UHGV virus genome: UHGV-1977856
Direction: 5' to 3' (one strand)
DNA length: 11,273 nt
Origin: a virus
Part shown: positions 1 through 11,267 of the stretch, piece after piece
Numbering within the stretch: position 1 is the stretch's first letter
Layout: every line of letters starts with the position of its first letter
Translations under genes and position numbers: made by a program
Notes under the pieces: generated by a model
The model's database searches: none
Told to the model about the DNA's origin: nothing
The model's input: the letters and a program-made list of their open reading frames with translations, nothing else

Positions 1-77
1 CAGACACCACTGACCGCGTCATTAATCACGCAATTCCGGCGAGAATGCGGCTATCTGCAAAGTTAAAACTGCATAAA

Positions 78-117
78 AAAATAGAGTCTGTCGACATCCG
101 CCAGACTCTACAGTACA
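78..117 (-). terminator. Rho-independent terminator-like hairpin oriented for the - strand
   Basis: Perfect inverted repeat tagagtctg...cagactcta with an A-run at 78-84 on + (a T-run 3' of the hairpin on the - strand). No T-run follows on the + strand. Lies in the presumed host flank left of the element. Confidence 0.4.
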
Positions 118-386
118 CACAGCAGTGCATCCGCGTCTTAAGTCCGGCATTGTCTCCTCTGCGCCGGTGACTGTGTTATAACGGTTTTAACCTTTAGTTG
201 CCAATTTTCTTCAGTGACAGATTTCACGAAAATATAAGTTACATTATTAATATCGTGATTTTATAAATTAGTGTTTTTTGCTGTTTCATAATGTGCCACG
301 TTGTTCATTATGTTTTTGATTTTTAAGCTCATTGCAATTTTTCTTGTTCCAACTTGTTCCACGTTGTACCCCCTTGTGCAATGATC

Positions 387-411
387 GGTGTAGTTAATGG
401 TGTAGTTAATT
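387..411. repeat. Left terminal direct repeat ggtgtagttaatggtgtagttaatt (tandem 12-mer); candidate integrase arm-type site or att repeat
   Basis: Exact 25-bp match to 11026-11050; extends to 29 bp with one mismatch (ga[t/a]cggtg...). Ends immediately before the int start. Confidence 0.6.
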
Positions 412-1662
412 GTGATGACCGGATTCAAAATTATGAGCAGAGCACTTAACAAACTGAGCGATACACAGCTAAGAAAAATCAACGGCACACCAGCCCCAAA
501 AACCACATTTCTTAATGACGGTGGAAACCTGAGCGTCAGGCATTCCACCAGCGGCTTGTTAACCTGGTATTTCACCTACAGGGCAGGAGCTGGACGCCAG
601 GTATCACCGGAACGCCTGAAGCTGGGAAATTATCCTGATCTGAGCCTGAAAGCAGCCAGGGAAAAAGCGGCACAGTGTCGCGCATGGCTGGCAGAAGGAA
701 AAAATCCACGCCATGAGCTTAATTACTCCATACAGGAAGCACTAAAGCCGGTAACGGTGGGTGATGCGATCAGCTACTGGCTGGAAATGCACGTAAAGGA
801 AAACCGTGTCGATTACGTATGCCTGAAAAGCCGCCTGAATAATCACGTCATACAGCATATTGGCAATATGCCACTGGATAAATGCGAGTTACGTCACTGG
901 CTGGCCTGTTTTGACCGGATACGCAAAAAATCCCCTGTAACGTCTGGTCACATGATGCAGGCGTGTAAACAGGCGCTTAAGTTCTGCCGTAAACGTCGCT
1001 ACGCAGTCAGTAACGTTCTGGATGATCTTAACGTGGTGGACGTTGGCAAAAAACCAGGCATAAGCGAACGCGTGCTGAGCAACAAAGAACTTGGCGAATT
1101 ATTACAGGCGCTGGATAAAAAAATATTCCCGCCCTACTACAGCGCACTAATCCGCCTCCTGATTGTGTTCGGCTGCCGAACCGGAGAACTGAGATTATCG
1201 GAGATCAGGGAGTGGGATTTTAAGGAAATGCTCTGGACAGTACCGAAAGAGCACAGCAAAACGAAGGTCGCCATATTCAGGCCAATACCGGAAAGCATTT
1301 TACCGTTCGTCACGCAGCTGGTGGAGCAGAACAGACACACAGGGCTATTACTCGGGGAACTGAAACAGGAAGCCAGTGTGTCGCAATACGGCAGATTCAT
1401 GCACAAAAAATTAAACCATCCGCACTGGTCACTACACGATATACGGCGCACGTTTACCACGATGCTGAACGATTTAGGCGTGGATCCGCATATTGTCGAA
1501 CAACTCACCGCTCACCAGATGCCAGGGATGCAGCGAGTCTATAACCACTCCCGTTATCTCGATGCGAAACGTAATGCGCTGGACATGTGGACAGAGCGGT
1601 TAGAGATACTGGCGGGTACTCACAAAAACGTAACCACACTGCCAATAGCCAGAGAAATATAA
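412..1662 (+). CDS. int: Tyrosine recombinase / integrase, P4-like family
   Basis: 416-aa ORF. N-terminal arm-binding-like region, and a C-terminal catalytic region (HWSLHDIRRTF ... HSRYLD) consistent with the tyrosine recombinase R..H..R..Y motifs. True start may be ATG 415 or ATG 433 (MSRALNKL...); no strong SD for any. Confidence 0.9.
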   Translation: MMTGFKIMSRALNKLSDTQLRKINGTPAPKTTFLNDGGNLSVRHSTSGLLTWYFTYRAGAGRQVSPERLKLGNYPDLSLKAAREKAAQCRAWLAEGKNPRHELNYSIQEALKPVTVGDAISYWLEMHVKENRVDYVCLKSRLNNHVIQHIGNMPLDKCELRHWLACFDRIRKKSPVTSGHMMQACKQALKFCRKRRYAVSNVLDDLNVVDVGKKPGISERVLSNKELGELLQALDKKIFPPYYSALIRLLIVFGCRTGELRLSEIREWDFKEMLWTVPKEHSKTKVAIFRPIPESILPFVTQLVEQNRHTGLLLGELKQEASVSQYGRFMHKKLNHPHWSLHDIRRTFTTMLNDLGVDPHIVEQLTAHQMPGMQRVYNHSRYLDAKRNALDMWTERLEILAGTHKNVTTLPIAREI

Positions 1663-1687
1663 TTTTTTTTGCGATTTTTTAGAACTG

Positions 1688-1745
1688 ACACAACGTGAAA
1701 CAACGAGACACCACGACGAACAACGGCGAACAATCTGGAACAAAC
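1688..1745 (+). promoter_or_regulatory. 10-bp-phased array of CAACG / GGAACAA motifs downstream of int
   Basis: cacaacgtga aacaacgaga caccacgacg aacaacggcg aacaatctgg aacaaac: core recurs at exactly 10-bp spacing about 6 times. The inverse motif (ccacgttgt, cttgttcc) occurs at 296-304, 343-350, 353-360 and 359-367 upstream of int. Confidence 0.45.
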
Positions 1746-2029
1746 TTGATTAACATCTGACTGACACCCTAAAAAGTTGATTTTCAGTCGTTTTACTGGC
1801 TTTTTGTACATTGGCGAATCACTCTTAAAAACATGTAAAAAAGGCGTAAAAACAGAATTTTATGCCTTTGCACCACAATGAATTAAAAGAGTTTTTATTC
1901 TCATTACCACACTTCTGTAAAATGACCGCCGCCAGTGTTTGCCATTCCATAAACACCCTGACACAATCCGACGCACCACAACACAATAGGACACCAAATA
2001 ACTCTTTAAGAAATATCAAAGGGGGAATT

Positions 2030-2218
2030 GTGTTAAGCACAGATCGCTTTATACGTGAAAAAGAATGTCAGCAACTTACAGGCCTGAGCCGTTCATGTCG
2101 GTACCGCCTGGAAAAAACCGGACAATTCCCATCACGGCGTAAGCTCGGCGGTCGTTCCGTTGGCTGGTCTTTATCCGAAGTTCTGGCATGGAAGGAAAGC
2201 TGTGAGGCAGTTCACTAA
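2030..2218 (+). CDS. alpA: AlpA-family (MerR-like HTH / excisionase-type) transcriptional regulator
   Basis: GTG start at 2030 preceded by SD aagggggaa. 62-aa product VLSTDRFIREKECQQLTGLSRSCRYRLEKTGQFPSRRKLGGRSVGWSLSEVLAWK resembles the AlpA pattern (..G.SR.T.Y......FP.....G.RSVGW...E...W). The N-terminal extension from 1862 in the ORF track looks non-protein-like. Confidence 0.7.
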   Translation: MLSTDRFIREKECQQLTGLSRSCRYRLEKTGQFPSRRKLGGRSVGWSLSEVLAWKESCEAVH

Positions 2219-2270
2219 TCAGGCTGGCGGCACACAGCCGCCACCCATCCACTAATACAGAGATCTAACC

Positions 2271-3461
2271 ATGAATACTGGATATTCTCCCGAACAAGGG
2301 CGGGGCTTCGTTCGTCCTGAAAAACAGAATCTGCAAAATTTTGCCGAAATTATTCCGGTTATTTCCGGCCTTACTGGCGGGAGTGAAACCAATATTGTTA
2401 ACGCCAGAGCGTTGCAGATGTTTGATGATAAAAAGGGAGTAAATTTAACTTACACCCCTGACGGCAATCAGAATATGAGCATTATCTCTGAGTCAGGTTT
2501 CTACAAACTAATAAAAACAAAAAGCGCCCCGTTGCCGGAGCGCCTTTGTGAACAATTAACCTACTGCGCAAAAAATGAATCTGAGCAGTGGGATTATATC
2601 AACCGTGTGGCGAAGCGCCACAATTGCCGGATAACAGGCAAAACAAAGGCCACCCGCTACGGTGGCCCCTCGACACAAGCTACACGTTATCCCCAACGCA
2701 TGAGCATCACCAACAATGCCACATTTGCGGCTGGTGGGCAATGTGATCAGTCAGATTTGGTTCGTTCCAAGGTTTGCAACGAGAGCTTTTTCCTGTGCTC
2801 TTTAAGGAATTTCTCAAGAGCAAAAGCACATGGCGCGAATCTTTCTGATTCATGCTCTATCTTTCTGCGCCGTCTTTTCCGTGCCGGTGATAATGTTTTG
2901 GTCAATTCTTTATCGGTCATTGTGTTGTCCTGCATAGCAATGCGCCGTAATACCTTACACCACGGCGCTGATGGTGATTACTCTGGTTCTTTGGTCTTGC
3001 GACGCTGGAGTTCTTCGCGTGCAACGGTGACAAGCTGCCCGATTTCTTCCGCTGCTTTGATGCCGATTTGTTCGACCTTAGCCAGGGCATCCAGTGACGA
3101 CACAAGGGGATTTTCTCCGCTGCCTTCTGCTTGGCGGCGGGCTATTTCTCCGCGCATGGCGGTTACGATAAATCCGGCATTGCTTTCGCCGTCCAGCTTA
3201 ACGGATTCCATCCCTTGCATAACATCTAGTGGGACTCTGACAGTTGTCAGTTGTGATTTTGCGTTTTTGTTAGCCGTTGCCATTTCTGAAACTCCTAATC
3301 ATCGGTGTGTTTCAGTATACACAAAAAAAGAAATACAAAAAGCCTTGACGTGTGTTTCATGCGCTCATAACATGAAACACACCAAAAGAATTGTTGAAAT
3401 ACAAAGAGCAACGCCCCGCAGTGCCGGAAACACATACGGGGCGTCTAACCACCAACGATAG
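2271..3461 (+). CDS. Uncertain ORF: only the N-terminal ~130 codons look protein-like (weak BRO-N/KilA-N-like ESGFYKLI motif); possible pseudogene or read-through artefact
   Basis: Residues after about 2700 are Ser/Cys/Arg-rich low-complexity and lie exactly antisense to two better-supported - strand genes (2747-2920, 2978-3283). No in-frame stop until 3461. Confidence 0.25.
   Translation: MNTGYSPEQGRGFVRPEKQNLQNFAEIIPVISGLTGGSETNIVNARALQMFDDKKGVNLTYTPDGNQNMSIISESGFYKLIKTKSAPLPERLCEQLTYCAKNESEQWDYINRVAKRHNCRITGKTKATRYGGPSTQATRYPQRMSITNNATFAAGGQCDQSDLVRSKVCNESFFLCSLRNFSRAKAHGANLSDSCSIFLRRLFRAGDNVLVNSLSVIVLSCIAMRRNTLHHGADGDYSGSLVLRRWSSSRATVTSCPISSAALMPICSTLARASSDDTRGFSPLPSAWRRAISPRMAVTINPALLSPSSLTDSIPCITSSGTLTVVSCDFAFLLAVAISETPNHRCVSVYTKKEIQKALTCVSCAHNMKHTKRIVEIQRATPRSAGNTYGASNHQR
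2747..2920 (-). CDS. Small basic hypothetical protein (57 aa, MTDKELTKTLSPARKRRRRKIEHE...)
   Basis: Start taken at the internal ATG 2920, which has an SD (AGGA, 7-nt spacing); the ORF-track start 2935 lacks one. Lies downstream of, and co-oriented with, the RHH gene. Confidence 0.45.
   Translation of the reverse strand: MTDKELTKTLSPARKRRRRKIEHESERFAPCAFALEKFLKEHRKKLSLQTLERTKSD
2978..3283 (-). CDS. Ribbon-helix-helix (CopG/Arc-like) DNA-binding protein; candidate repressor of the element
   Basis: 101 aa with a good SD (ttaGGAGtttcagaaATG). N-terminus fits the RHH fold pattern: beta-strand TTVRVP, helix LDVMQGMESVKL, turn DGESNAG, helix FIVTAMRGEIARRQ. Sits divergent to the rightward operon, next to an inverted-repeat operator. 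Confidence 0.6.
   Translation of the reverse strand: MATANKNAKSQLTTVRVPLDVMQGMESVKLDGESNAGFIVTAMRGEIARRQAEGSGENPLVSSLDALAKVEQIGIKAAEEIGQLVTVAREELQRRKTKEPE
3304..3385. promoter_or_regulatory. Divergent promoter/operator region: rightward sigma70-like promoter overlapped by an 11-bp inverted repeat, plus a third half-site near the RHH gene start
   Basis: TTGACG (3345-3350), 17-bp spacer, TAACAT (3368-3373). Inverted repeat tgtgtttcatg (3351-3361) / catgaaacaca (3371-3381). A further tgtgtttca copy lies at 3307-3315. A leftward -10-like TATACT is the reverse complement of 3316-3321. Confidence 0.55.
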
Positions 3462-3480
3462 CAAGATTATCGAGGCTGCT

Positions 3481-3687
3481 ATGAGAAATCATACCATACA
3501 CCCGCAAGGGCGGGACTCGCACAACCTGAATAAATACATCTGGCGTTTTATCGCCCTGAGTACGGTACAACCGCGCGTGATTACCATTGAGGCCACCAGC
3601 GAACAGGAAGCCCGTCAGCAATCACCGGCTGGCTGCGTGATGGTATTCGCCGCCCGTATTCGTCAGGGGGTGCACCATGTGCAATAA
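3481..3687 (+). CDS. Small hypothetical protein (68 aa); tentatively recalls Icd-like small proteins of P4-type elements
   Basis: ATG 3481 has an SD (cGAGGctgctATG); the ORF-track start 3391 is a TTG without SD. Product MRNHTIHPQGRDSHNLNKYIWRFIALS...ITIEATSEQEARQQ... The family resemblance is from memory only. Its stop overlaps the next gene's start. Confidence 0.5.
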   Translation: MRNHTIHPQGRDSHNLNKYIWRFIALSTVQPRVITIEATSEQEARQQSPAGCVMVFAARIRQGVHHVQ

Positions 3688-3916
3688 CACCCGTCCGGAC
3701 GCAGCCGCCGAAGCAATCAAAACACTGATTGATGCGCTGATTGATATTTCATGCACGGCAGCAACCGCAGAAAAACACATTACCAGAGAGACGGAATATA
3801 CAGGGGCAATAATCCCCCATTCGCTGGCATACGCACAGATTACCGCTGATATGGCACTGAATGAGGCTAAAGCCATCCTGATTGCTGATTGTGAAAATGG
3901 GGGGGGTTATGCGTGA
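3677..3916 (+). CDS. Hypothetical small protein (79 aa)
   Basis: ATG overlaps the upstream stop (cATGTGCAATAA), indicating translational coupling in the operon. No recognisable domain. Confidence 0.5.
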   Translation: MCNNTRPDAAAEAIKTLIDALIDISCTAATAEKHITRETEYTGAIIPHSLAYAQITADMALNEAKAILIADCENGGGYA

Positions 3917-4142
3917 TGATCGTTTTAATGCCCTGAAACAGGAATTTGATGGCGCACCGGAAGATACAGATATTGCGCTGTTATGTGTTGCTGACATGGT
4001 AAAAGCTGCATGTTTTTTACTGGAAACCGCCGAACATTCAGGAACGGGTAGCGATATTCTCAATATTGCGTCGGACTATGCGGAATATGTGGCAGAGGCA
4101 CGTTACAGAAGAAAATTACCGGAGGATGTAAGCCATGCATAA
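3909..4142 (+). CDS. Hypothetical small acidic protein (about 77 aa)
   Basis: ATG 3909 is preceded by a G-run SD and overlaps the upstream stop. The ORF-track start 3882 is TTG. No recognisable domain. Confidence 0.45.
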   Translation: MRDDRFNALKQEFDGAPEDTDIALLCVADMVKAACFLLETAEHSGTGSDILNIASDYAEYVAEARYRRKLPEDVSHA

Positions 4143-4335
4143 TCATGAATCGCACTTACCTGTCGTGCTGAATGTGCCGTCAGATTATACGGGGCGCGTT
4201 TTGATATTCCTGGATAAAGGGAAAGTGAAATCACAATGCCGTCTTAGAAATAATGAGGTTGTTGGTTCTCTGGCTTTTTTTTCTGAAGCCTGTATTCGTA
4301 CCGGAATAAAACCGGAATCACTGACAGGAAAATAA
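4135..4335 (+). CDS. Hypothetical small protein (66 aa)
   Basis: SD ccGGAGGatgtaagccATG; start overlaps the upstream stop by 8 nt. Confidence 0.5.
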   Translation: MHNHESHLPVVLNVPSDYTGRVLIFLDKGKVKSQCRLRNNEVVGSLAFFSEACIRTGIKPESLTGK

Positions 4336-4339
4336 AACC

Positions 4340-4639
4340 ATGAAAAAGAAAATTTCTGGCTTTACTGCCAGCGGCCCCGCTCGGCCTGAAATCCGCCCCG
4401 GCGATATTTTCCGGGATAACTACGGCGGCACGGTAACGATTAAAAGCGTGGCGGGACGGTGCGTTACTTACCGCCGTGATGGGTACGGTTATGACTGCGT
4501 GATGCCTGTTTATCAGTTCCGGCGTGATTTTTCGCTGGTACAGGCCACACCACGCAGACAGCCCACCAGCAACGCAAAGGCACGGGCAAATATTCAGAAA
4601 ATGAAAAACATGATTAACGCATTCAGGGGCACAAAATGA
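4340..4639 (+). CDS. Hypothetical small protein (99 aa)
   Basis: SD acAGGAAaataaaaccATG; its stop overlaps the rep start (ATGA). Confidence 0.5.
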   Translation: MKKKISGFTASGPARPEIRPGDIFRDNYGGTVTIKSVAGRCVTYRRDGYGYDCVMPVYQFRRDFSLVQATPRRQPTSNAKARANIQKMKNMINAFRGTK

Positions 4640-6051
4640 AATTGGCACCGAACTTAAAAAAACAGCCACACGACAAAATGACCGAAGTCATTATTTTTGC
4701 GGGTAGTGATGCCTGGGCGCACGCGAAACAATGGCAGGAACAGGACGGGCGACTTGCTGGCGACAACGTGCCACCTGTATGGCTTGGAGACAGCCAGCTT
4801 GACGAACTGGCAGACCTGAAAATCATCGATGATGGTCGCTATTGTGTCCGGCTGTACAAGGCAGGCCACATCAAGCCGTCAAATATTAATGCCATCGGGC
4901 AAAAGCTGGCGGCGGCAGGTGTACGGGATGCGAATTATTACCCTGAGGGAATGCACAGCCAGAAGCTGGAGAACTGGCACGACTACCTGCAACGGATCCG
5001 CGAACAGACAGAGCGCGGGGAAATACTTACTGACGAGCAATACAGCCAGCGAAAAACCACGCTACCAATGAGCATTGGATCTGCAGGGTACGACACACAG
5101 CTTGATTATGTCGTTAAGGGCGTGATTCCGGCTAATTCATTGTGCAGCACATACGGCGCGAGCGGTTCCTATAAATCGTTCCTCGCGTGTTCCTGGGCGT
5201 GTCATGTTGCCACGGGTCGCCACTGGGGAGGCCGCAGGGTGGCGCATGGTTCGGTGATGTATGTCGTCGGTGAAGGGGGGATAGGTGTCCCCCGTCGTAT
5301 CAAGGCATGGGAAATCGTTAATGATGAACGGGTGGAAAATCTGTACCTGGTAAACCGCCCGATTTTTCCGGCAGTCCCGCTTGATGTCGATGAAATGGTC
5401 ATCGCTTCCCGCCAGGTTGAACGGGAAACGGGTAAACCGGTACGCATGATTATTCTGGATACGCTGGCGCGTTGCTTTGGCGGTAATGATGAAAATGACG
5501 CGCGGGATATGGGGGCGTTTATCCGTGGATGTGACGAACTGAAACGACGCACAGGGGCCACAGTGCTGGTGGTTCACCATTCCGGCAAGGATGAAACAAA
5601 GGGGGCGCGTGGTTCCAGTGCATTTCGTGCATCTCTGGACGCTGAATACCGTATTCGCCGTGAAGGTGCAGACAGTGAAGCCCTGGTTATCTCCTGCACC
5701 AAAATGAAGGACGCGGAGGAACTGAAAGAGGCTGCATACGATTTACGTGTGGTGGAGCTTTTTACCGACACTGACGGGGAGTTAATCACGTCGCTGGTGG
5801 TTGTGGATAAACCGCGCCCACCCGTTGAACTGGAGCGCATCGAGGAAGCCGGGAACAAGACGGAGAATCATGCCGCGCTATGGGGCTGTATCCGTTCACG
5901 CACACAGCGCGGCGATAAATGCACAATTCCGTTGTTGCGTGATGATATGAAAAAGCTGGGGTATGAGATGAAACACTTCCGGCGCTGGCTGTACAAGCTG
6001 GAAGGTGATGGCGTTATTGCTATTGACGGTGATGACGTGTGCCCACTGTAA
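4636..6051 (+). CDS. Replication initiator / helicase with RecA-like (AAA_25, RepA-like) ATPase domain; N-terminal ~160 aa of unknown function
   Basis: 471 aa. P-loop-like GASGSYKS, Walker B-like MIILDTLARCFGG, and a VVHHSGKD motif typical of RepA-like helicases. Followed directly by an iteron array. No primase motifs recognised by eye. Confidence 0.8.
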   Translation: MKLAPNLKKQPHDKMTEVIIFAGSDAWAHAKQWQEQDGRLAGDNVPPVWLGDSQLDELADLKIIDDGRYCVRLYKAGHIKPSNINAIGQKLAAAGVRDANYYPEGMHSQKLENWHDYLQRIREQTERGEILTDEQYSQRKTTLPMSIGSAGYDTQLDYVVKGVIPANSLCSTYGASGSYKSFLACSWACHVATGRHWGGRRVAHGSVMYVVGEGGIGVPRRIKAWEIVNDERVENLYLVNRPIFPAVPLDVDEMVIASRQVERETGKPVRMIILDTLARCFGGNDENDARDMGAFIRGCDELKRRTGATVLVVHHSGKDETKGARGSSAFRASLDAEYRIRREGADSEALVISCTKMKDAEELKEAAYDLRVVELFTDTDGELITSLVVVDKPRPPVELERIEEAGNKTENHAALWGCIRSRTQRGDKCTIPLLRDDMKKLGYEMKHFRRWLYKLEGDGVIAIDGDDVCPL

Positions 6052-6245
6052 AAAGTGGGTAGTAAAAGTGGGGAGTGTGGGGAATTTAACAAAATTGAAA
6101 CGCGATTCCCCACTTTCCCACCTGTATATACCCCAAAAAGTGGGGAATAAAAATACATTGAAAAACATCACGTTAGAATCACAAAAAAAGAAGTGGGGAG
6201 ATGTTGGGTAATTTCAAAAAGTGGGTAGTAAAAGTGGGGAGCAGT
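6052..6245. repeat. Iteron-type replication origin
   Basis: AAGTGGG(G/T)A(G/A) recurs at 6053, 6066, 6077, 6138, 6191, 6219 and 6232, plus one inverted copy (ttccccactt, 6106-6115). A 24-bp block aaaagtgggtagtaaaagtggggag is duplicated at 6051-6075 and 6217-6241, bracketing an AT-rich core (6150-6190). Confidence 0.7.
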
Positions 6246-6250
6246 GAGGA

Positions 6251-6502
6251 ATGACCAGAAAAACCAGAGATAAGACAGCGCCAAAATATCTCGCATTAGA
6301 CATGACAGAGCACGCCTTAAAGGTGGCAATCAGAACGATAGACCGCCACGCTGGGGAAGGATACGCGAAAGCACATCCCGAACTGATAAGCGCATTCATG
6401 ACCACGACGGCGGCAAACTTTGCCACGCTGACAGAACGGGAGATTGCCGAAGCGGAACAGGTGACAACCATCAACGTTAAAACCGGAGAGCAGACAGCAT
6501 GA
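6251..6502 (+). CDS. Hypothetical protein (83 aa)
   Basis: Its stop overlaps the ssb start (ATGA); protein-like composition; no recognisable domain. Confidence 0.5.
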   Translation: MTRKTRDKTAPKYLALDMTEHALKVAIRTIDRHAGEGYAKAHPELISAFMTTTAANFATLTEREIAEAEQVTTINVKTGEQTA

Positions 6503-6921
6503 CAGCACAGATAGCGGCTTACGGGCGGCTGGTGGCTGACCCGCAGTTAAAGACCACCAGCAAAGGGACACAAATGGCGATGGCGAGTATGGCTGTTCCC
6601 CTTCCGTGTAGCCAGGCAGATGACGGAACGGCGACGATGTGGTTATCCGTCCTGGCGTTTGGCAGGCAGGCCGACGCACTGGCAAAGCACCACAAAGGCG
6701 AACTGGTGAGCGTGGCGGGTAACATGCAGGTAAGCCAGTGGACAGGCCAGAACGGCGAAACGCGGCAGGGCTGGCAGGTTATCGCAGACAGCGTAATCAG
6801 TGCCAGAACGGCGCGACCGGGCGGCAAAAAAGGCCAGCAGGGCCAGGCTACTGACGCACTGAACAGGGCAAAACAACAGGCGGGAAATGATGATCCGTAC
6901 GGGGATAACATACCGTTTTAA
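6499..6921 (+). CDS. ssb: Single-stranded DNA-binding protein (SSB family)
   Basis: 140 aa. OB-fold SSB pattern (YGRLVADPQLKTTSKG...MWLSVLAFGRQADALAKHHKGELVSVAGNMQVSQW...QGWQVIADSV), a Gly/Gln-rich linker, and an acidic C-terminal tail ending DDPYGDNIPF (compare the canonical DDDIPF). Confidence 0.8.
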   Translation: MTAQIAAYGRLVADPQLKTTSKGTQMAMASMAVPLPCSQADDGTATMWLSVLAFGRQADALAKHHKGELVSVAGNMQVSQWTGQNGETRQGWQVIADSVISARTARPGGKKGQQGQATDALNRAKQQAGNDDPYGDNIPF

Positions 6922-6935
6922 GCAACGAGTGACAG

Positions 6936-6960
6936 AAGCCGGAACAATCCGGCTTTTTTA
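6936..6960 (+). terminator. Rho-independent terminator after ssb
   Basis: Hairpin agccgg-aacaat-ccggct followed by tttttta, 15 nt after the ssb stop. Confidence 0.7.
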
Positions 6961-7034
6961 CGGGTCCTCCCGATGGAGTGGCCTTGCCACGGGGCGGGAG
7001 CGGCGCGGAAAAAGGCTGGTTTTTGCATTTTCAT
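6954..7034. repeat. Copy A of a duplicated ~80-bp GC-rich element containing a cosN-like motif
   Basis: Near-identical to 9489-9570; differs only in an internal segment (atggagtggcc versus gtgtggtgtcc). Contains ACGGGGCGGGAGCGGCGCGG at 6989-7008. Confidence 0.75.
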
Positions 7035-7345
7035 GGCGGCGGCAGCATGTGTGATAATTTATTGATAATTAAAAATTATTTCTGTTTTTACCTGTACAAT
7101 ATTTTTTTCTCCATGTCATTAGACCAGTTTGCAATTAATTGAAATATATAAATAAATTTGTTTTTCACCTGCCAGATGGAGTTGCCTGTGCAAAATGTGT
7201 TCAGATGGCGGGATATTTATGCCGGATTCTCTCCGGCTTTTTTGTGTCTGAATCTGATCAATCTATTTTTATGATAGAAATATGTTTATCTACCACTTTT
7301 ATCGATCAATAATGCGCGCAGTTTAGTCAGTAAGAGGAAGTTACT

Positions 7346-7555
7346 GTGAATTGTATTAACGACCTGAACACAGGCGAGGTAAAAGGTGGTTCCGTTCATC
7401 TGGATGCGCAGACCGTTATGCGCCTTAAGCAGTACAGGATCGACCACATAAATCATCATCCTGACCAACCATTACCAGGTGTGGCGCAGATTGTCAGACA
7501 CGCAGTTAACGCGTGGCTTGATAAGAATGGTTTTGCATCTGGGGGTGAGCAATGA
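7346..7555 (+). CDS. Hypothetical small protein (69 aa), first gene of the capsid operon
   Basis: GTG start with a strong SD (aagaggaag, about 6-nt spacing); its stop overlaps the protease::MCP start (ATGA). Confidence 0.55.
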   Translation: MNCINDLNTGEVKGGSVHLDAQTVMRLKQYRIDHINHHPDQPLPGVAQIVRHAVNAWLDKNGFASGGEQ

Positions 7556-9465
7556 ATCACTGGTACACCATTAAGGCGGCGGGTGTTCGCGGAGCGGCAG
7601 AAATATCCATCTATGAAGAAATTGGCGGCTTCGGTATCACCGCGAAGCAGTTTGCGGAAGACCTGAAAGCCCTGGGCGATGTCTCACATATCGACCTGCG
7701 GATCCATTCGCCAGGTGGTGACGTGTTTGAAGGCATCGCCATCTATAACCTGTTACGGAATCATCCGGCAGAAATTACGGTTTATATCGATGGTGTTGCG
7801 GCTTCAATGGCTTCGGTTGTCGCAATGGCTGGCGATCGTGTTGTGATGCCGGAAAACGCCATGATGATGATACATAAGCCGTGGGGTATCTCTGGCGGAA
7901 ATGCTGGTGATATGCGTGATTATGCTGATTTGCTGGATAAGGTGGAAACCGTGTTAGTCCCTGCTTATGCCAGAAAAACGGGCAAATCAGCACAGGAAAT
8001 TACCGCCATGCTGGAAGATGAAACCTGGATGGACGGGAAAGAATGCCTTAAGCACGGTTTTGCTGATGAATTGTTGCCATCTGTCACAGCAATGGCGCGA
8101 ATTGAATCGAAACGCACAGGAGATTTTTCACACATGCCGGAAACCATTAAAGGAATGATTACCCCGCCACAGGGAGCAGCCAATATTGCTGGTAATGAAC
8201 AGAAGCGCATCAACGGAATAAGTGAAGTGTTTAGCCTGTTCGGCAGTCGTTACGACGGGATCAAAATGGCGTGCCTGGAAGATGCATCATGTACACCGGA
8301 GATGGCCCGTGAAAAGTTGTTGAACGAGATGGGGCGCGAGTCCACGCCATCCAATAAAAATACCCCGGCTCATATTTATGCCGGTAACGGGAACATAACA
8401 GGCGATGCAATTCGTCAGGGGCTTTATTCCCGTCTCGGGTATGAACGCCCAGAGCGGGGAAATCCTTACGCGATGATGAGCCTTTTTGAAATGGCCCAGG
8501 CATCACTAACGGATCGTGGTATCAGTGTTGGCGGTTTTTTAAATCGCTCGCAGGTCGTTAATGCAGCTTTCACACACAGCAGCAGCGATTTTTCTCACAT
8601 TCTGGCTGGTGGTGCTGAAAAATCAGTACTGAAAGGCTGGCAGGACAGCGGCGAAACGTTCCAGAAATGGACGCGTACCGGATCGCTTTCAAACTTTCAT
8701 GAAGCAAAGCGCGTTGGTCTGAATGGTTTTTCAAAGCTGGATAAAGTACCGGAAGGTGCGGAATATAAATACATCACCACCAGCGATAAAGGTGTACCTA
8801 TTGCGCTGGCCACATACGGTAATATTTTTTCTGTTACCCGTCAGGCCATTATCAACGATGACCTGACCCAGTTAACTACAATCCCCATGGCGATGGGGCG
8901 TGCGGCCGCCAGAACAGTAGGTAATCTGGTTTATCTTCTGTTAACCAGCAACGGCAAATTTACGGATAGTAAAGCGTTATTCCATGCCGATCATAAAAAT
9001 CTTATTGCGAAGGATATGGACATGGAGGGGCTTAACGAAGCCCGTAAGCTGATGCGACTACAGGAGGATGCCAACGGCGACTCCCTGAATATTACCCCCG
9101 CATTTGTCCTGGTCCCCGCCGCGCTGGAGTCTGCCGCACATCGCGCCATTCTGTCATCGTCATCACTCTTTCCGGTTGATGGTGATGGCACTATCAATCA
9201 GAACCCCGGCATCATTAACGTGGTGAAAGATATGGCTGAGGTTATTGTTGAGCCACGTCTTGATAAGAACAATAACAAGGAGTGGTATGTAGCCGCAGCG
9301 AAAGGGATGGACACGATAGAGGTCGCTTATCTTGATGGTATTGATACGCCATATCTTGAGGAGCAGGTGGGCTTTACTGTTGATGGTGTCGCCTGGAAGG
9401 TGCGCATAGATGCAGGTGTCGCGGCCCTCGATTATCGTGGACTACTGAAATCGAACGGAGCATGA
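7552..9465 (+). CDS. Fusion protein: ClpP-like (S14) prohead protease N-terminal domain + HK97-fold / Mu gpT-like major capsid protein C-terminal domain
   Basis: 637 aa. N-terminus carries ClpP motifs (HSPGGDVFEGIAIYNLL...IDGVAASMASVVAMAGDRVVMPENAMMMIHKPWG). C-terminal ~330 aa fit the major-head-subunit pattern (KYITTSDKGVPIALATYGNIFSVTRQAIINDDL...IPMAMGRAAART...ITPAFVLVPAALESAA). Confidence 0.85.
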   Translation: MNHWYTIKAAGVRGAAEISIYEEIGGFGITAKQFAEDLKALGDVSHIDLRIHSPGGDVFEGIAIYNLLRNHPAEITVYIDGVAASMASVVAMAGDRVVMPENAMMMIHKPWGISGGNAGDMRDYADLLDKVETVLVPAYARKTGKSAQEITAMLEDETWMDGKECLKHGFADELLPSVTAMARIESKRTGDFSHMPETIKGMITPPQGAANIAGNEQKRINGISEVFSLFGSRYDGIKMACLEDASCTPEMAREKLLNEMGRESTPSNKNTPAHIYAGNGNITGDAIRQGLYSRLGYERPERGNPYAMMSLFEMAQASLTDRGISVGGFLNRSQVVNAAFTHSSSDFSHILAGGAEKSVLKGWQDSGETFQKWTRTGSLSNFHEAKRVGLNGFSKLDKVPEGAEYKYITTSDKGVPIALATYGNIFSVTRQAIINDDLTQLTTIPMAMGRAAARTVGNLVYLLLTSNGKFTDSKALFHADHKNLIAKDMDMEGLNEARKLMRLQEDANGDSLNITPAFVLVPAALESAAHRAILSSSSLFPVDGDGTINQNPGIINVVKDMAEVIVEPRLDKNNNKEWYVAAAKGMDTIEVAYLDGIDTPYLEEQVGFTVDGVAWKVRIDAGVAALDYRGLLKSNGA

Positions 9466-9472
9466 CAACAAG

Positions 9473-9495
9473 GGCGGCGACAGCCGCCTTTTTTT
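9473..9495 (+). terminator. Rho-independent terminator after the capsid gene; stem overlaps a lambda cohesive-end-like GGGCGGCGAC
   Basis: Hairpin ggcggc-gaca-gccgcc followed by ttttttt, 8 nt after the stop. Confidence 0.65.
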
Positions 9496-9570
9496 ACGGG
9501 TCCTCCCGGTGTGGTGTCCTTGCCACGGGGCGGGAGCGGCGCGGAAAAAGGCTGGTTTTTGCATTTTCAT
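9489..9570. repeat. Copy B of the duplicated ~80-bp GC-rich element containing a cosN-like motif
   Basis: Matches 6954-7034. Contains ACGGGGCGGGAGCGGCGCGG at 9525-9544. Confidence 0.75.
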
Positions 9571-9723
9571 TCGTCATTATCATCTTTCTATCATATTGAA
9601 TATTAAGTGTTTTTATTTTTGGTATGTTAATTTCGCTTATTTTGTGTTCAACATGCAGCGCGTTTTTTGACCTTTTTTGAAAGATATTTGCAAGATGCAT
9701 GTTTAAAACATTCTGGAGCGGGT

Positions 9724-10209
9724 ATGGATCGGGAACTGAAAAATCTGATGCTGAACATTAACCAGCTGGCGGCGATAGCGGGAATATGTCGCCAGACTGC
9801 GGCGGCAAGGCTGAAAAATATCCAGCCAGCCGGAGGACATGACAAGCTGAAACTCTATCGGGTGACTGACATTCTGACCTGTTTTCTTGATCTTCCCGTT
9901 CCGGCATCACTGGAAGAAATGGAGCCACACGACCGTAAGGCCTGGTATCAGTCCGAACGTGAGCGCCTCAAGTTCGAACAGGAAACGGCGCAACTCATAC
10001 CCGCCGATGATGTGCGAAAAGAGATGGCTATATGGGGAGAAATCGTAAGCGAGGAACTGGAAAAACTCCCCAGTATTCTGGCACGTGATGCTGGGCTTAA
10101 ACCGATGGCAGTAAACAGAGTGCAGTCAATTATTGACGATTTGTGTAATCAGATTATCAGCCGGATGGTGAAAAATGACGTAGTGAATGAGGTCGCAAAA
10201 CAGGCATGA
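9724..10209 (+). CDS. Small terminase subunit, lambda Nu1-like (N-terminal winged-HTH); candidate packaging-specificity / redirection protein
   Basis: ATG 9724 has an SD (GGAG, 7-nt spacing); the ORF-track start 9667 is a TTG. The 162-aa product parallels lambda gpNu1 in length and pattern: NINQLAAIAGICRQTAAARL / AGGHDKLKLYRVTDIL versus Nu1 NKKQLADIFGASIRTIQNW / GGGKGNEVLYDSAAVI, and C-terminal EIVSEELEKLPSILARD versus IAGEIASILDGLPLSV (Nu1 recalled from memory). Confidence 0.7.
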   Translation: MDRELKNLMLNINQLAAIAGICRQTAAARLKNIQPAGGHDKLKLYRVTDILTCFLDLPVPASLEEMEPHDRKAWYQSERERLKFEQETAQLIPADDVRKEMAIWGEIVSEELEKLPSILARDAGLKPMAVNRVQSIIDDLCNQIISRMVKNDVVNEVAKQA

Positions 10210-10493
10210 TAATGACCGAATCTGAAATACTGCGATTAATCCGCCGTGCTGGTGGAATCAGCCAGCTGGCTGACGAACATGCCAAGCAGCCGGATACAGT
10301 CACCGCTGAAAATTACGCGCGTGTGGTGGCTGAGGTGATGCACCGTGACGGTATTGAGTTTAACGGCGTGGATATGCGCAATATACGCACCAGAGTTCTG
10401 GAGATGTTGTCATACCGTCGCCGCGTGCAGATGTACCAGGAGAAAGAAAAAATTACGTACCGGTGGAAGAAGCCGGAGCGGTTACGACGTTAA
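10206..10493 (+). CDS. Hypothetical protein (95 aa) translationally coupled to the small terminase
   Basis: ATGA overlap with the TerS stop; protein-like composition; no recognisable domain. It occupies the position where lambda has gene A, but is far too small to be a large terminase. Confidence 0.5.
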   Translation: MIMTESEILRLIRRAGGISQLADEHAKQPDTVTAENYARVVAEVMHRDGIEFNGVDMRNIRTRVLEMLSYRRRVQMYQEKEKITYRWKKPERLRR

Positions 10494-10499
10494 CTTGTG

Positions 10500-10539
10500 G
10501 TGACATACCGTGACGGAGAGTGACACACAGTGACAAAAA
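10500..10539 (+). repeat. Four tandem 10-bp repeats with a GTGAC core
   Basis: gtgacatacc gtgacggaga gtgacacaca gtgacaaaaa, exactly 10-bp period, beginning 7 nt after the stop of the last gene. Confidence 0.55.
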
Positions 10540-11025
10540 AGACGGTATTTAAATCGGGTGGTGTTTAATACCCCCAGGGGGATAGAAATCCCTACACCTC
10601 ATTGCTTATGGGACCGCCCGCCTACCCTTGTTCACATCGCCGCAGGTTCGAAAACTTTTTTTGGGAAGGTGTGCACGGGATTGATAGATGAGGTCTATCT
10701 ATAAAAAATCACAAAATCCGCGCCATTGCTGGATCCGCCAAAAATCCCCCACCTTACGGCAGACAAAGAAAACGCGAATTATGGGCCTGTTGCAGAGAAA
10801 AAAGGTCTCACTAGTTTTGCGCACCCTAGCATCGAGGTTCGTCAGCCTCCCATCAGCAACCAGATAACTAATCTCGCTGGTGGGCATGATGCCGATATGG
10901 GGACTTCCATAACGGTTTATCCGTGATCATCCACCAGCTTCATGGCGGATAGCCGGAAAATGATAACGGTATAGCCCGTCGCTTGTGTCTATTTGTTCCG
11001 CATTGTTGCATACAGTGCACCGAAC

Positions 11026-11050
11026 GGTGTAGTTAATGGTGTAGTTAATT
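11026..11050. repeat. Right terminal direct repeat ggtgtagttaatggtgtagttaatt
   Basis: Exact 25-bp match to 387-411. Confidence 0.6.
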
Positions 11051-11267
11051 TGCGATTTTTAACGTTATTTGCAGCGATGTTTGTTGGTTAAATTCAATAA
11101 GTTATGCGCATTTAATTATAAATATCGTGAATGAATAATCATGCATAAGCATTTTGCTTAAAATATCGGCAATATTTGGAACTTATTACTGGAATTTTGG
11201 GTAATACGTTGTTGGACCGACCCGGTCTGGTTATCATATCGCGCTCTTAATTGCGGGAGGATGTAAC

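What the first reader, a model, noticed from the sequence alone, without database searches (positions are those of the whole stretch)
387..411. Identical 25-bp tandem-12-mer repeats bracket the element (second copy at 11026-11050)
ggtgtagttaatggtgtagttaatt occurs exactly twice, about 10.6 kb apart, enclosing every gene of the island; the left copy abuts the int start codon. Two readings: (a) they are the attL/attR direct repeats themselves, or (b) they are integrase arm-type binding sites that sat on either side of the core in attP and were separated by integration, with the true core further out. The tandem 12-mer structure favours (b).
Basis: seen in the sequence. Interest (0 to 1): 0.6.

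Follow-up and report, generated by a model that had tools for sequence, protein, structure and literature searches.

The report
Integrase arm sites of a phage satellite
The two identical 25-base repeats are not the ends of the island: they lie inside it on either side of the true crossover site and are most likely the docking sites for the N-terminal domain of its integrase, an arrangement already known from satellite phage P4 and one group of related E. coli satellites.

Summary
GGTGTAGTTAATGGTGTAGTTAATT occurs exactly twice (387-411, 11026-11050), with none expected by chance.

The window is an E. coli phage-inducible chromosomal island (PICI) inserted between mcaS/abgR and smrA. The empty site in K-12 MG1655 puts the junctions at ATTAT[T/A]AATATCGTGA (243-258 and 11115-11130). 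The repeats therefore lie inside the element, 128 nt and 64 nt from the core. Reading (a), that they are attL/attR, is refuted. Reading (b), arm-type sites, is supported.

- **Conserved layout:** ten relatives at six other insertion sites keep a tandem 12-mer pair about 46 nt upstream of int and a second pair in the far arm. In the nine of these elements (window included) with a clear core, the two pairs lie 232-233 bp apart in the reconstructed attP.
- **Real attP:** a circular virome contig carries that junction.
- **Which protein reads them:** in 39 loci the 12-mer variant follows the integrase N-terminal domain (Pfam Arm-DNA-bind_3) without exception. It does not follow AlpA or the integrase core specificity.
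- **Precedent:** P4's GenBank record annotates the same layout as "attP arm sequence repeat". Tommasini et al. 2023 described an equivalent doubled motif in helper-embedded PICIs.

This is a new member of a known kind. Binding by the integrase is inferred, not shown.

The parts
387..411 (+). P' arm pair: two tandem 12-mers GGTGTAGTTAAT (387-398, 399-410) plus T. Candidate binding sites for the integrase N-terminal (arm) domain. The pair ends 21 nt upstream of the int ATG.
   Evidence: Exact repeat. Lies inside the element by the empty-site comparison. Its position is conserved in all relatives examined.
11026..11050 (+). P arm pair: two tandem 12-mers GGTGTAGTTAAT (11026-11037, 11038-11049) plus T, in the same orientation as the P' pair, 64 nt before the attR core.
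243..258 (+). attL core ATTATTAATATCGTGA. The attL/attR identity block within which crossover must have occurred is AATATCGTGA (249-258).
   Evidence: Alignment with the MG1655 empty site. Homology to EcCIDi14-type elements starts at 255. Identity block confirmed.
11115..11130 (+). attR core ATTATAAATATCGTGA (identity block 11121-11130). Element sequence ends at 11130.
344..383 (+). Four 10-bp-phased TTGTNC repeats (TTGTTCCAAC TTGTTCCACG TTGTACCCCC TTGTGCAATG) directly upstream of the P' pair. Candidate sites for a second protein, with AlpA acting as excision factor as my guess.
   Evidence: 8 matches versus 0.42 expected. The TTGTT columns are invariant across relatives.
10983..11012 (+). Three 10-bp-phased TTGTNC repeats directly upstream of the P pair, the counterpart of 344-383.
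1684..1743 (-). A third array of about six 10-bp-phased TTGTTC-like repeats, on the opposite strand, just after the int stop codon and upstream of alpA.
   Evidence: (I1). Present at the same place in L004-L007.
11092..11104 (+). IHF-consensus-like site ATTCAATAAGTTA (1 mismatch) between the P pair and the core. A candidate only.
   Evidence: matches to this pattern are not enriched in the window. The homologous position in L007 and L051 is a perfect WATCAANNNNTTR.
433..1662 (+). int: a tyrosine integrase with an N-terminal Arm-DNA-bind_3 domain (residues 8-95) and a C-terminal catalytic domain.
   Evidence: Pfam PF13356 E=2.8e-18 and PF00589 E=7.4e-17. The N-terminus matches PDB 3JTZ/3RMP, 'CP4-like integrase', E=3.6e-4.
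2030..2218 (+). alpA: a small helix-turn-helix protein of the Phage_AlpA family, the PICI activator and possibly its excision factor.
   Evidence: Pfam PF05930 E=2.7e-18. RefSeq annotation.

Best explanation
The window holds a roughly 10.9-kb E. coli phage-inducible chromosomal island. It carries the same integrase and AlpA proteins as EcCIDi14, and its integrase is 87% identical to that of EcCICFT073. It is integrated between mcaS and smrA by a P4-family tyrosine integrase. Crossover took place in a 10-bp block (AATATCGTGA) within a 16-bp core at 243-258 and 11115-11130. The two 25-mers are internal. When the element excises they come together in attP, 233 bp apart and in the same orientation, in this order: [P pair] - 64 nt - core - 128 nt - [P' pair] - 21 nt - int ATG. 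Each pair is two 12-bp sites, giving four sites in all, one for each protomer of an integrase tetramer. The most likely mechanism follows the lambda and P4 model. The N-terminal arm-binding domain of each protomer holds a 12-mer while its C-terminal domains bind and cut the core. The bent arms then bridge to the core and assemble the recombination complex. Because the P' pair lies just upstream of int, integrase bound there probably also represses its own promoter, as reported for P4 Int and KplE1 IntS. What is shown here: the junctions, the internal position of the repeats, the conserved geometry, a real attP in a related element, and the association of the 12-mer variant with the integrase N-terminal domain. 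What is inferred: physical binding, the need for the sites in recombination, and autoregulation.
For: (1) Empty site. MG1655 has an intact mcaS-smrA spacer, and the junctions lie 128 nt and 64 nt outside the repeats.
(2) The same Int and AlpA proteins (WP_001352457.1, WP_001352456.1) occur in an element inserted in an ISEc45 transposase gene. There, homology to the window runs from 255 to 11130 and includes both 25-mers.
(3) Relatives with int DNA 70-96% identical sit at other sites: yifB, roxA-phoQ, tqsA, cspD-clpS and rcnR-thiM. Each has a tandem 12-mer pair about 46 nt upstream of int and a second pair in the far arm, while the short cores all differ. The pair-to-pair distance in the reconstructed attP is 232-233 bp in the nine elements (the window and eight relatives) where a clear core identity block was found.
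(4) A circular virome contig (L051, 119-bp terminal overlap) carries a real attP, pair-core-pair-int, with 233 bp between the pairs. It is collinear with the attP reconstructed in silico from the integrated L007. L089 looks the same.
(5) Association with the integrase. In 39 loci the 12-mer class follows the Int N-terminal class without exception: 24 class A (GGTGTAGTYAAT with ..RHSTSGLL), 13 class B (GGTGTAGTCAYT with ..VKYLTSGKL) and 2 class C (TGTGTGGTCAGT with ..IKHSKGGKL). Identical AlpA helix-turn-helix segments occur with both A and B, for example 6 and 6.
(6) A natural chimera. Against the window, L005's Int is 79% identical over the first 100 residues and 98.4% over the rest, and its AlpA is 96.8% identical. 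It uses the same attB as L004 (class A), yet it has class B 12-mers in both arms. In the P arm, apart from one or two single-base differences just upstream, the A/B difference lies inside the 12-mers, and the 8-10 nt that follow are identical.
(7) Int has the Pfam Arm-DNA-bind_3 domain and matches solved N-terminal domains of CP4-like integrases.
(8) Precedent. The P4 GenBank record annotates 12-bp 'attP arm sequence repeat' features as tandem pairs on both sides of the core, the int-proximal pair 15 nt from the int ATG. Tommasini et al. 2023 (PMC10111431) report a doubled 12-bp-period motif in HE-PICIs, 81 bp upstream and 132 bp downstream of the attP centre. In the window the P' pair starts 132 bp from my inferred centre (and the sequence).
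(9) EcCICFT073 has the same 24-mer at -46 from int. Fillol-Salom et al. 2018 (PMC6092414) found that AlpA does not control its int promoter.
(10) Integrases about 50% identical in Kosakonia, Raoultella, Phytobacter and Erwinia keep a tandem GTGTA-type 12-mer pair at the same place.
Against: No binding or mutational data exist for this integrase clade, so who reads the 12-mers is inferred. The association is confounded by linkage. The P' pair is about 20-50 nt from the codons of the N-terminal domain, and the P pair is only 233 bp further away in the circular form, so a single recombination block could move all three together. The 39 loci are also not phylogenetically independent. Classes A and B differ essentially at one position of the 12-mer (position 11), a narrow basis for a specificity switch. 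A second set of conserved repeats (TTGTTC, 10-bp phase) lies next to each pair, and which protein binds which set has not been resolved experimentally. No sigma-70-like promoter was detected around the P' pair, so the autoregulation step rests only on analogy with P4 and KplE1.
Confidence: 0.8

Rival explanations
1. The 25-mers are the attL/attR direct repeats themselves, meaning the crossover occurs within them and they mark the ends of the island.
For: They are the longest exact direct repeat in the window and bracket every gene.
Against: They are absent from the empty attB in MG1655. Host sequence continues to 258 on the left and resumes at 11121-11131 on the right. The same element at a different locus keeps 128 nt and 64 nt of element sequence outside the repeats. 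A circular relative has both pairs in a single attP, separated by 233 bp, which is impossible if crossover occurred inside them.
Confidence: 0.01
2. The 12-mer pairs are bound by AlpA, as excision factor or transcription activator, or by another accessory protein rather than by the integrase. Tommasini et al. left this option open for HE-PICIs.
For: Excision factors bind direct repeats (abstract of PMC7498355). The authors of PMC10111431 named AlpA as a possible binder. The P' pair sits in front of int, and AlpA was once proposed to control int in CP4-57 (cited).
Against: Identical AlpA helix-turn-helix segments are found with different 12-mer classes, while the Int N-terminal class predicts the 12-mer class in 39 of 39 loci. 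L008 has the AlpA type of L009 and L010 but class A 12-mers, matching its class A Int N-terminus. AlpA does not affect the int promoter of EcCICFT073, which carries the same 24-mer. Excision-factor sites are usually spaced about one helical turn apart; the 12-mers have a 12-bp period, whereas the neighbouring TTGTTC arrays have the 10-bp period.
Confidence: 0.12
3. The pairs are only transcriptional operators, for example for int, and the right-hand copy is a duplication with no role in recombination.
For: The left pair lies 21-46 nt upstream of the int ATG. Arm sites that overlap integrase promoters act as operators in P4 and KplE1.
Against: The right-hand pair lies after the last gene, where there is nothing obvious to regulate. 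It keeps a fixed distance from the core (start of pair to start of core block 90-98 bp), and the pair-to-pair spacing of 232-233 bp holds across elements with unrelated cores and 70-100% int DNA identity. That pattern indicates selection on attP geometry. An operator role is compatible with, and does not replace, the arm-site role.
Confidence: 0.05
4. The repeat is a chance match or a dispersed genomic motif with no link to the element.
For: None beyond its short length.
Against: 0 of 200 shuffles gave even one match. It is present in only 996 of 5426 E. coli genomes and then typically twice. In every locus examined, each copy was found at the same position in an arm of an element with this integrase type.
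Confidence: 0.01

Closest known systems
Satellite phage P4 attP (annotated 'attP arm sequence repeat' features in NC_001609; Pierson & Kahn 1987, cited)
   Same: Both have 12-bp repeats as tandem pairs in the same orientation on both sides of a short core. The int-proximal pair lies 15 nt (P4) or 21 nt (window) from the int ATG, and the order is pair-core-pair-int. The integrase belongs to the same Pfam architecture, Arm-DNA-bind_3 plus Phage_integrase. P4 Int represses its own promoter (PMC7286903, citing Piazzolla 2006).
   Different: The repeat sequence is unrelated (TTGGGGGCATAA-type versus GGTGTAGTTAAT). The integrases are only 23% identical. Pair-to-pair spacing is 209 bp in P4 against 233 bp here. 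P4 has extra inverted copies at and inside int that the window lacks. P4 targets a tRNA-Leu gene, whereas this element targets an intergenic spacer.
Doubled motif tgTGTATTGCantgTGTATTGCa of helper-embedded PICIs (Tommasini, Mageeney & Williams 2023, PMC10111431)
   Same: Both are tandem 12-bp-period motifs sharing a GTGTA core, with two co-oriented copies per attP. One copy lies 132 +/- 2 bp downstream of the attP centre; the window's P' pair starts 132 bp from my inferred centre. The other lies about 80 bp upstream. Both belong to enterobacterial PICIs of the int-alpA type.
   Different: The 3' half of the 12-mer differs (TTGCA versus GTTAAT), and the elements belong to a different integrase clade with different targets. 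That paper reported the motif as not found in other PICIs and left the binding protein open. Here a variant of the motif is found across the clade that includes EcCICFT073, EcCIDi14 and the capsid-encoding elements such as L006, and it tracks the Int N-terminal domain rather than AlpA.
Arm-type sites of lambda Int and KplE1 IntS (summarised in PMC2951348)
   Same: In both cases a two-domain integrase has arm sites that are unrelated in sequence to the core and lie on both arms of attP. The P' sites overlap the integrase promoter region in attL, which gives negative autoregulation in KplE1.
   Different: Lambda has five arm sites in an asymmetric 2+3 arrangement, and its N-terminal domain belongs to a different family. 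Here the arrangement is a symmetric 2+2 with a strict 12-bp period.
EcCICFT073 and EcCIDi14, the E. coli PICIs of Fillol-Salom et al. 2018 (PMC6092414)
   Same: The window's Int and AlpA are the same proteins as those of the clone D i14 element inserted in an IS110-family transposase gene. EcCICFT073 has an 87% identical Int and the same 24-mer in its P' arm.
   Different: The window's element sits at a different attB (mcaS-smrA). Its packaging module also differs: a ClpP-like protease/capsid fusion plus a DUF1441 protein.

Membership tests
Arm-type sites of a two-domain (heterobivalent) tyrosine integrase attP | The sites lie inside the mobile element, flank the core on both sides in attP, and are absent from attB. 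| tested here: met
   Empty-site alignment with MG1655. A real attP in circular contig L051.
Arm-type sites of a two-domain (heterobivalent) tyrosine integrase attP | The cognate integrase carries a separate N-terminal arm-DNA-binding domain. | tested here: met
   Pfam PF13356 Arm-DNA-bind_3, residues 8-95, E=2.8e-18. PDB 3JTZ/3RMP, E=3.6e-4.
Arm-type sites of a two-domain (heterobivalent) tyrosine integrase attP | The site sequence is unrelated to the core-type sites and stays the same when core specificity changes. | tested here: met
   The same GGTGTAGTYAAT pairs occur with cores AATATCGTGA, AATAGCGGAT, GGACATATTT and ATGATAGTTAT.
Arm-type sites of a two-domain (heterobivalent) tyrosine integrase attP | The position relative to the core is fixed among relatives. 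| tested here: met
   Pair-to-pair spacing is 232-233 bp in 9 of 9 elements with a clear core.
Arm-type sites of a two-domain (heterobivalent) tyrosine integrase attP | The site sequence co-varies with the N-terminal domain of the integrase. | tested here: met
   39 of 39 loci fall on the diagonal, and AlpA does not associate. Caveats: physical linkage and shared ancestry.
Arm-type sites of a two-domain (heterobivalent) tyrosine integrase attP | The integrase N-terminal domain binds the sites directly, and the sites are needed for recombination. | not testable with these tools
   This needs gel shift, footprinting and att-site mutagenesis.
attL/attR core direct repeats (the crossover identity block) | The repeat is shared with attB and lies at the junction between host and element DNA. 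| tested here: not met
   The 25-mer is absent from MG1655 attB. The junctions lie 128 nt and 64 nt further out.
P4-type attP layout | Tandem pairs of 12-bp repeats, co-oriented, one pair on each side of the core, with the P' pair next to the int start. | tested here: met
   P4 annotation and sequence: 4151-4174 and 3942-3965, core 4078-4097, int ATG at 3926, compared with the window layout.
HE-PICI doubled motif (Tommasini et al. 2023) | The motif tgTGTATTGCantgTGTATTGCa. | tested here: not met
   The window motif is GGTGTAGTTAATGGTGTAGTTAAT. It shares only the GTGTA core and the 12-bp period. The geometry matches but the sequence does not, so this is a sister variant rather than a member.
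Excision-factor (RDF, AlpA/Vis/Xis type) binding sites | Direct repeats spaced about one helical turn apart, whose sequence tracks the excision factor. | tested here: not met
   The period is 12 bp, and the 12-mer class is independent of the AlpA type. The adjacent TTGTTC arrays with a 10-bp period fit this description better, but that was not tested.

The most novel reading that the evidence does not exclude
The 12-mer, chiefly its position 11 (A, C/T or G) and position 6, together with the integrase N-terminal domain, may form a small set of mutually exclusive arm-specificity classes that reassort independently of core specificity. L005 would be a natural domain-swap chimera of this kind. 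This would let several related satellites share one cell (up to 7 copies of the 25-mer per genome) without one integrase assembling on another element's arms. It would also give a ready-made natural panel for re-engineering arm specificity in P4-family integrases. In the same model the neighbouring 10-bp-phased TTGTTC arrays would be AlpA sites, found in both arms, upstream of alpA and, in the capsid-encoding relatives, about 7 kb downstream of the int start. That would make AlpA both the excision factor and the activator of the island.
Probability: 0.3. Interest if true: 0.5.

Novelty: new member of a known kind. Interest (0 to 1): 0.3.

Why it matters
The result fixes the true ends of this island at 243-258 and 11115-11130, and the insertion point 75 bp upstream of the 5' end of the mcaS small-RNA gene. 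It shows that the tandem 12-mer attP layout is general. That layout was described for P4 in 1987 and for helper-embedded PICIs in 2023. It also holds for the E. coli PICI integrase clade that contains the laboratory model EcCICFT073, and for integrases about 50% identical in other enterobacterial genera. The 2023 paper left open which protein reads the motif. The association data here point to the integrase N-terminal domain rather than AlpA, and they identify natural chimeras that would make the question directly testable. For annotation, the lesson is practical: the longest direct repeat bracketing an island of this type is not its att site. None of this is conceptually new.

Tried and rejected
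- **tRNA target:** no tRNA or tmRNA gene is in the window, so this is not a tRNA-targeting site like P4's.
- **Promoter scan around the P' pair (150-500):** it found no sigma-70-like promoter and no terminator, so the autoregulation idea has no local sequence support.
- **IHF consensus scan:** 15 matches against 12.9 expected, so it is not informative on its own. Only the site at 11092-11104 is kept, as a candidate, because the homologous position in L007 and L051 is a perfect consensus.
- **Full-length Int against PDB sequences:** no hit at E<=0.001. Only the isolated N-terminal 106 residues matched 3JTZ/3RMP and 3JU0.
- **Genome-contig scan with the Int alignment:** only 6 loci came back, and in none was the far arm found within the DNA returned (at most 10 kb downstream), so only their P' arms could be used.
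- **IMG/VR contigs:** most start exactly at int, so their P' arm is missing. That left 39 usable loci in all.
- **Automatic core search:** it failed for the ISEc45 insertions (L002, L020) and for L052. For L002 and L020 the attL/attR identity is only about 4 bp (GTGA), and the d=216 reported for them is spurious.
- **Locating EcCICFT073:** two 45-kb fetches of CFT073 missed it before it was found at roxA-phoQ.
- **Literature search for GGTGTAGTTAAT:** it returned only unrelated papers.
- **Not attempted:** structure prediction of the Int N-terminal domain bound to DNA.

Full report
**1. The observation**

GGTGTAGTTAATGGTGTAGTTAATT is present exactly twice, at 387-411 and 11026-11050, both on the + strand. 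There is no further match at up to 3 mismatches, and none of 200 dinucleotide-preserving shuffles gave a match. The identity is 26 bp, because the preceding C is shared. Each copy is a perfect tandem of the 12-mer GGTGTAGTTAAT. The window contains exactly four perfect 12-mers and no copy with 1 or 2 mismatches.

The 25-mers are the 3' ends of a longer imperfect direct repeat, 343-411 versus 10982-11050 (69 nt, 77% identical). The statement that the left copy abuts the int start holds only for the mechanical GTG ORF start at 412. The RefSeq start, which lines up with the annotated int start in relatives, is the ATG at 433, 21 nt downstream.

**2. What the window is**

The window is 100% identical to the chromosome of E. 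coli strain PI7. It covers the following, in order:
- the end of abgR and the McaS small-RNA gene (73-168, minus strand; Rfam 117.6 bits);
- an island encoding a tyrosine integrase, AlpA, an Icd-like protein, a DUF4222 protein, a RepA-type helicase, SSB, a ClpP-like protease/major-capsid fusion and a DUF1441 protein;
- the start of smrA.

The Int and AlpA proteins are the same RefSeq proteins as those of an element in strain clone D i14 that interrupts an IS110-family (ISEc45) transposase gene. Tommasini et al. 2023 name that element PICI EcCIDi14 (PMC10111431). The island is therefore an E. coli phage-inducible chromosomal island.

**3. Where the element really ends**

MG1655 has an uninterrupted mcaS-smrA spacer. 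Aligning it with both ends of the window shows two things:
- Host sequence runs through ...ACATTATTAATATCGTGA on the left, ending at 258.
- Host sequence resumes within ...ATTATAAATATCGTGAATGAATAA on the right.

The core is ATTAT[T/A]AATATCGTGA, at 243-258 and 11115-11130. The single mismatch (T at 248, A at 11120) confines the crossover to the 10-bp block AATATCGTGA.

There is independent confirmation. EcCIDi14-type elements at the ISEc45 site are homologous to the window from 255 to 11130 only, and this stretch includes both 25-mers.

The 25-mers therefore lie inside the element, 128 nt to the right of the attL core and 64 nt to the left of the attR core. Reading (a) is refuted.

In the reconstructed attP the core reads TAATTATAAA-TATCGTGA-TTTTATAAATTA. 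This is an imperfect inverted repeat around a short spacer, as expected for core-type sites. That last point is read from the sequence and was not tested.

**4. Conservation of the layout**

I fetched relatives from complete E. coli genomes with int DNA identity of 96.5%, 90.8%, 84%, 81.5%, 79%, 70% and 69.5%. They are inserted at yifB (two elements), roxA-phoQ, tqsA, cspD-clpS and rcnR-thiM (two elements).

Every one has a tandem 12-mer pair about 46 nt upstream of the int start and a second, co-oriented pair in the far arm. The short attL/attR identity blocks all differ: AATAGCGGAT, GGACATATTT, ATAACAGCA, ATGATAGTTAT and AGAAATACCCGTAT.

The distance from the start of the P pair to the start of the P' pair in the reconstructed attP is 233 or 232 bp in all nine elements, the window included, where a clear core block was found.

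Integrases only about 50% identical, from Kosakonia, Raoultella, Phytobacter and Erwinia, also have a tandem 12-mer pair at the same place, 46-57 nt before the start of the tblastn match to Int. Their sequences are KGTGTAGTCAGT, CGGTGTATCAAY and SGTGTATCACAA.

The model PICI EcCICFT073, located here at roxA-phoQ in CFT073, has GGTGTAGTTAATGGTGTAGTTAAT at -46 from int and GGTGTAGTTAATGGTGTAGTCAAT in its right arm.

**5. A real attP**

An IMG/VR contig (L051, 11,098 bp with a 119-bp terminal overlap, hence circular) reads pair-core-pair-int, with 233 bp between the pairs. It aligns end to end with the attP obtained by joining attR and attL of the integrated relative L007 at its core. L089 shows the same continuity. 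In this family the two repeats do meet around the core in the excised form.

**6. Not a dispersed motif**

A 30-nt query centred on the 25-mer hits 996 of 5426 complete E. coli genomes, 2166 places in all, with a median of 2 per genome, always in unannotated intergenic DNA. That fits one pair per element.

**7. Which protein reads the 12-mers**

Int has an N-terminal Arm-DNA-bind_3 domain (PF13356, E=2.8e-18). That region matches the solved N-terminal domains of CP4-like integrases (3JTZ/3RMP, E=3.6e-4).

Three 12-mer classes were seen among E. coli relatives:

| Class | 12-mer | Int N-terminal signature |
|---|---|---|
| A | GGTGTAGTYAAT | ..RHSTSGLL |
| B | GGTGTAGTCAYT | ..VKYLTSGKL |
| C | TGTGTGGTCAGT | ..IKHSKGGKL |

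In 39 loci with at least one readable pair, taken from E. coli genomes, one Shigella genome and IMG/VR, the 12-mer class matches the Int N-terminal class without exception (24 A, 13 B, 2 C). Identical AlpA helix-turn-helix segments occur with both A and B, for example 6 and 6.

Three comparisons are the most telling:
- L005, measured against the window, has an Int that is 79% identical over the first 100 residues and 98.4% over the rest, and an AlpA that is 96.8% identical. It uses the same attB as L004, a class A element, yet it has class B 12-mers in both arms.
- L006 and L007 have nearly identical AlpA proteins but different Int N-termini and different 12-mers.
- L008 has the AlpA type of L009 and L010 but a class A Int N-terminus and class A 12-mers.

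In the P arm the A/B difference falls inside the 12-mers. In the L006/L007 pair the aligned upstream flank has only a few scattered single-base differences, none within about 35 nt of the 12-mers. In L004/L005 the upstream flank has two single-base differences a few nucleotides before the 12-mers. In both pairs the 8-10 nt that follow are identical.

Published experiments on EcCICFT073 show that int and alpA are both required for transfer. They also show that AlpA expression triggers int-dependent excision and replication, and that AlpA does not control the int promoter (PMC6092414).

There are three caveats:
- The P' pair is physically adjacent to the N-terminal codons, and the P pair is only 233 bp away in the circular form, so linkage contributes to the association.
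- The loci are not independent.
- Classes A and B differ mainly at one position.

**8. Mechanism proposed**

On excision, the P arm (10982-11114) and the P' arm (259-432) join at the core. Four integrase protomers each place an N-terminal domain on one 12-mer and their C-terminal domains on the core sites of the partner duplexes. Bending of the arms allows this bridging; a candidate IHF site lies at 11092-11104. The 12-bp period puts the two sites of a pair on nearly the same face of the helix.

Because the P' pair lies 21-46 nt upstream of int, bound integrase probably also represses its own gene. This has been reported for P4 Int (PMC7286903, citing Piazzolla 2006) and shown for KplE1 IntS (PMC2951348). 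That step is inferred. No promoter-like site was found here.

**9. The second repeat class**

Directly upstream of each pair lie 10-bp-phased TTGTNC repeats (344-383 and 10983-11012). A third array lies inverted at 1684-1743, between int and alpA. In the capsid-encoding relatives a fourth array lies about 7 kb downstream of the int start, in the middle of the element. The TTGTT columns are invariant across all the relatives aligned.

Excision factors characteristically bind direct repeats one helical turn apart (abstract of PMC7498355). AlpA-driven excision occurs without control of the int promoter. AlpA is therefore my candidate for these arrays. This was not tested.

**10. Comparison with what is known**

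The P4 GenBank record annotates 12-bp "attP arm sequence repeat" features as tandem pairs at 4151-4174 and 3942-3965. These flank the core at 4078-4097, and the int ATG is at 3926. The order and orientation are the same as here. The differences are a 209-bp pair-to-pair spacing, an unrelated repeat sequence (TTGGGGGCATAA-type) and an integrase only 23% identical.

Tommasini, Mageeney and Williams 2023 reported a doubled motif, tgTGTATTGCantgTGTATTGCa, in helper-embedded PICIs. It lies 81 +/- 2 bp upstream and 132 +/- 2 bp downstream of the attP centre. They suggested either integrase arm domains or AlpA as the binder, and stated that the motif was not found in other PICIs. The window's P' pair starts 132 bp from my inferred centre, and its 12-mer shares the GTGTA core.

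The window is therefore a sister variant of a known architecture. What this analysis adds is that the layout extends across the clade containing EcCICFT073 and EcCIDi14, that the spacing is invariant, and that the motif tracks the Int N-terminal domain rather than AlpA. The motif itself was not found in the searchable literature.

**11. Verdict**

Reading (b) is supported and reading (a) refuted. This is a new member of a known kind, of modest interest.

Noticed in passing
window 73-168 (minus strand), with the core at 243-258: The left flank carries the McaS/IsrA small-RNA gene (Rfam RF00115, 117.6 bits). The island is inserted 75 bp upstream of the 5' end of mcaS and 137 bp upstream of the smrA start codon. 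It therefore splits the divergent mcaS-smrA control region and could alter regulation of either gene.
   Followed up: partly
window 6954-7034 and 9490-9570: An 81-nt direct repeat, 95% identical, lies just before and just after the protease/capsid fusion gene. On the + strand each copy folds into a long hairpin followed by a U-run (-45 and -46 kcal/mol, z -2.0 and -3.4). This looks like a terminator or an antitermination target bracketing the capsid gene. No Rfam family matched at gathering score.
   Followed up: partly
window 6050-6241: Iteron-like repeats lie in the spacer after the RepA-type helicase gene. AAAAAGTGGGTAGTAAAAGTGGGGAG occurs twice exactly, with related copies and an inverted GGGGAAT pair (D2, D15, I3). 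This is probably the island's replication origin.
   Followed up: no
window 344-383, 10983-11012, 1684-1743 (minus strand); L004-L009 at about +7000 to +7600 from the int start: 10-bp-phased TTGTTC arrays occur in both att arms, between int and alpA, and in the middle of the capsid-encoding relatives. They are conserved across both AlpA types. I suspect AlpA binding sites, which would give AlpA a dual excision-factor and activator role.
   Followed up: partly
L005 (NZ_AP041814.1), int at 15000-16229: This is a natural chimeric integrase. Its N-terminal 100 residues are 79% identical to the window's Int and the rest 98.4%. The 12-mers in both arms have switched from GTTAAT to GTCAYT, while the attB (yifB) and AlpA type are the same as in its class A neighbour L004.
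   Followed up: yes
L051 (IMGVR_UViG_3300045988_152974) and L089 (IMGVR_UViG_3300019373_000108): These virome contigs of related islands carry an attP junction. L051 has a 119-bp terminal overlap. Both therefore appear to have been sequenced as excised or packaged molecules.
   Followed up: partly
L002 (clone D i14) 3001-3004 and 13850-13853; also L020: The same integrase inserted its element into an ISEc45 (IS110-family) transposase gene. There attL and attR share only about 4 bp (GTGA) with each other. This is a secondary site with poor overlap identity but a similarly palindromic context.
   Followed up: partly
Hit H70, NZ_CP159641.1 150868-151040: One genome has only the first 173 nt of int (99.4% identical) lying next to smrA. 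This appears to be a decayed remnant of an island at this same site.
   Followed up: no
window 7552-9465 and 9724-10209: The packaging module is minimal: one 637-aa ClpP-like protease/major-capsid fusion and a DUF1441 protein, which is annotated as terminase small subunit in relatives. Close relatives with the same integration module carry instead either a capsid plus decoration-protein set or a full capsid-portal-terminase set. This shows free reassortment of integration and packaging modules.
   Followed up: no
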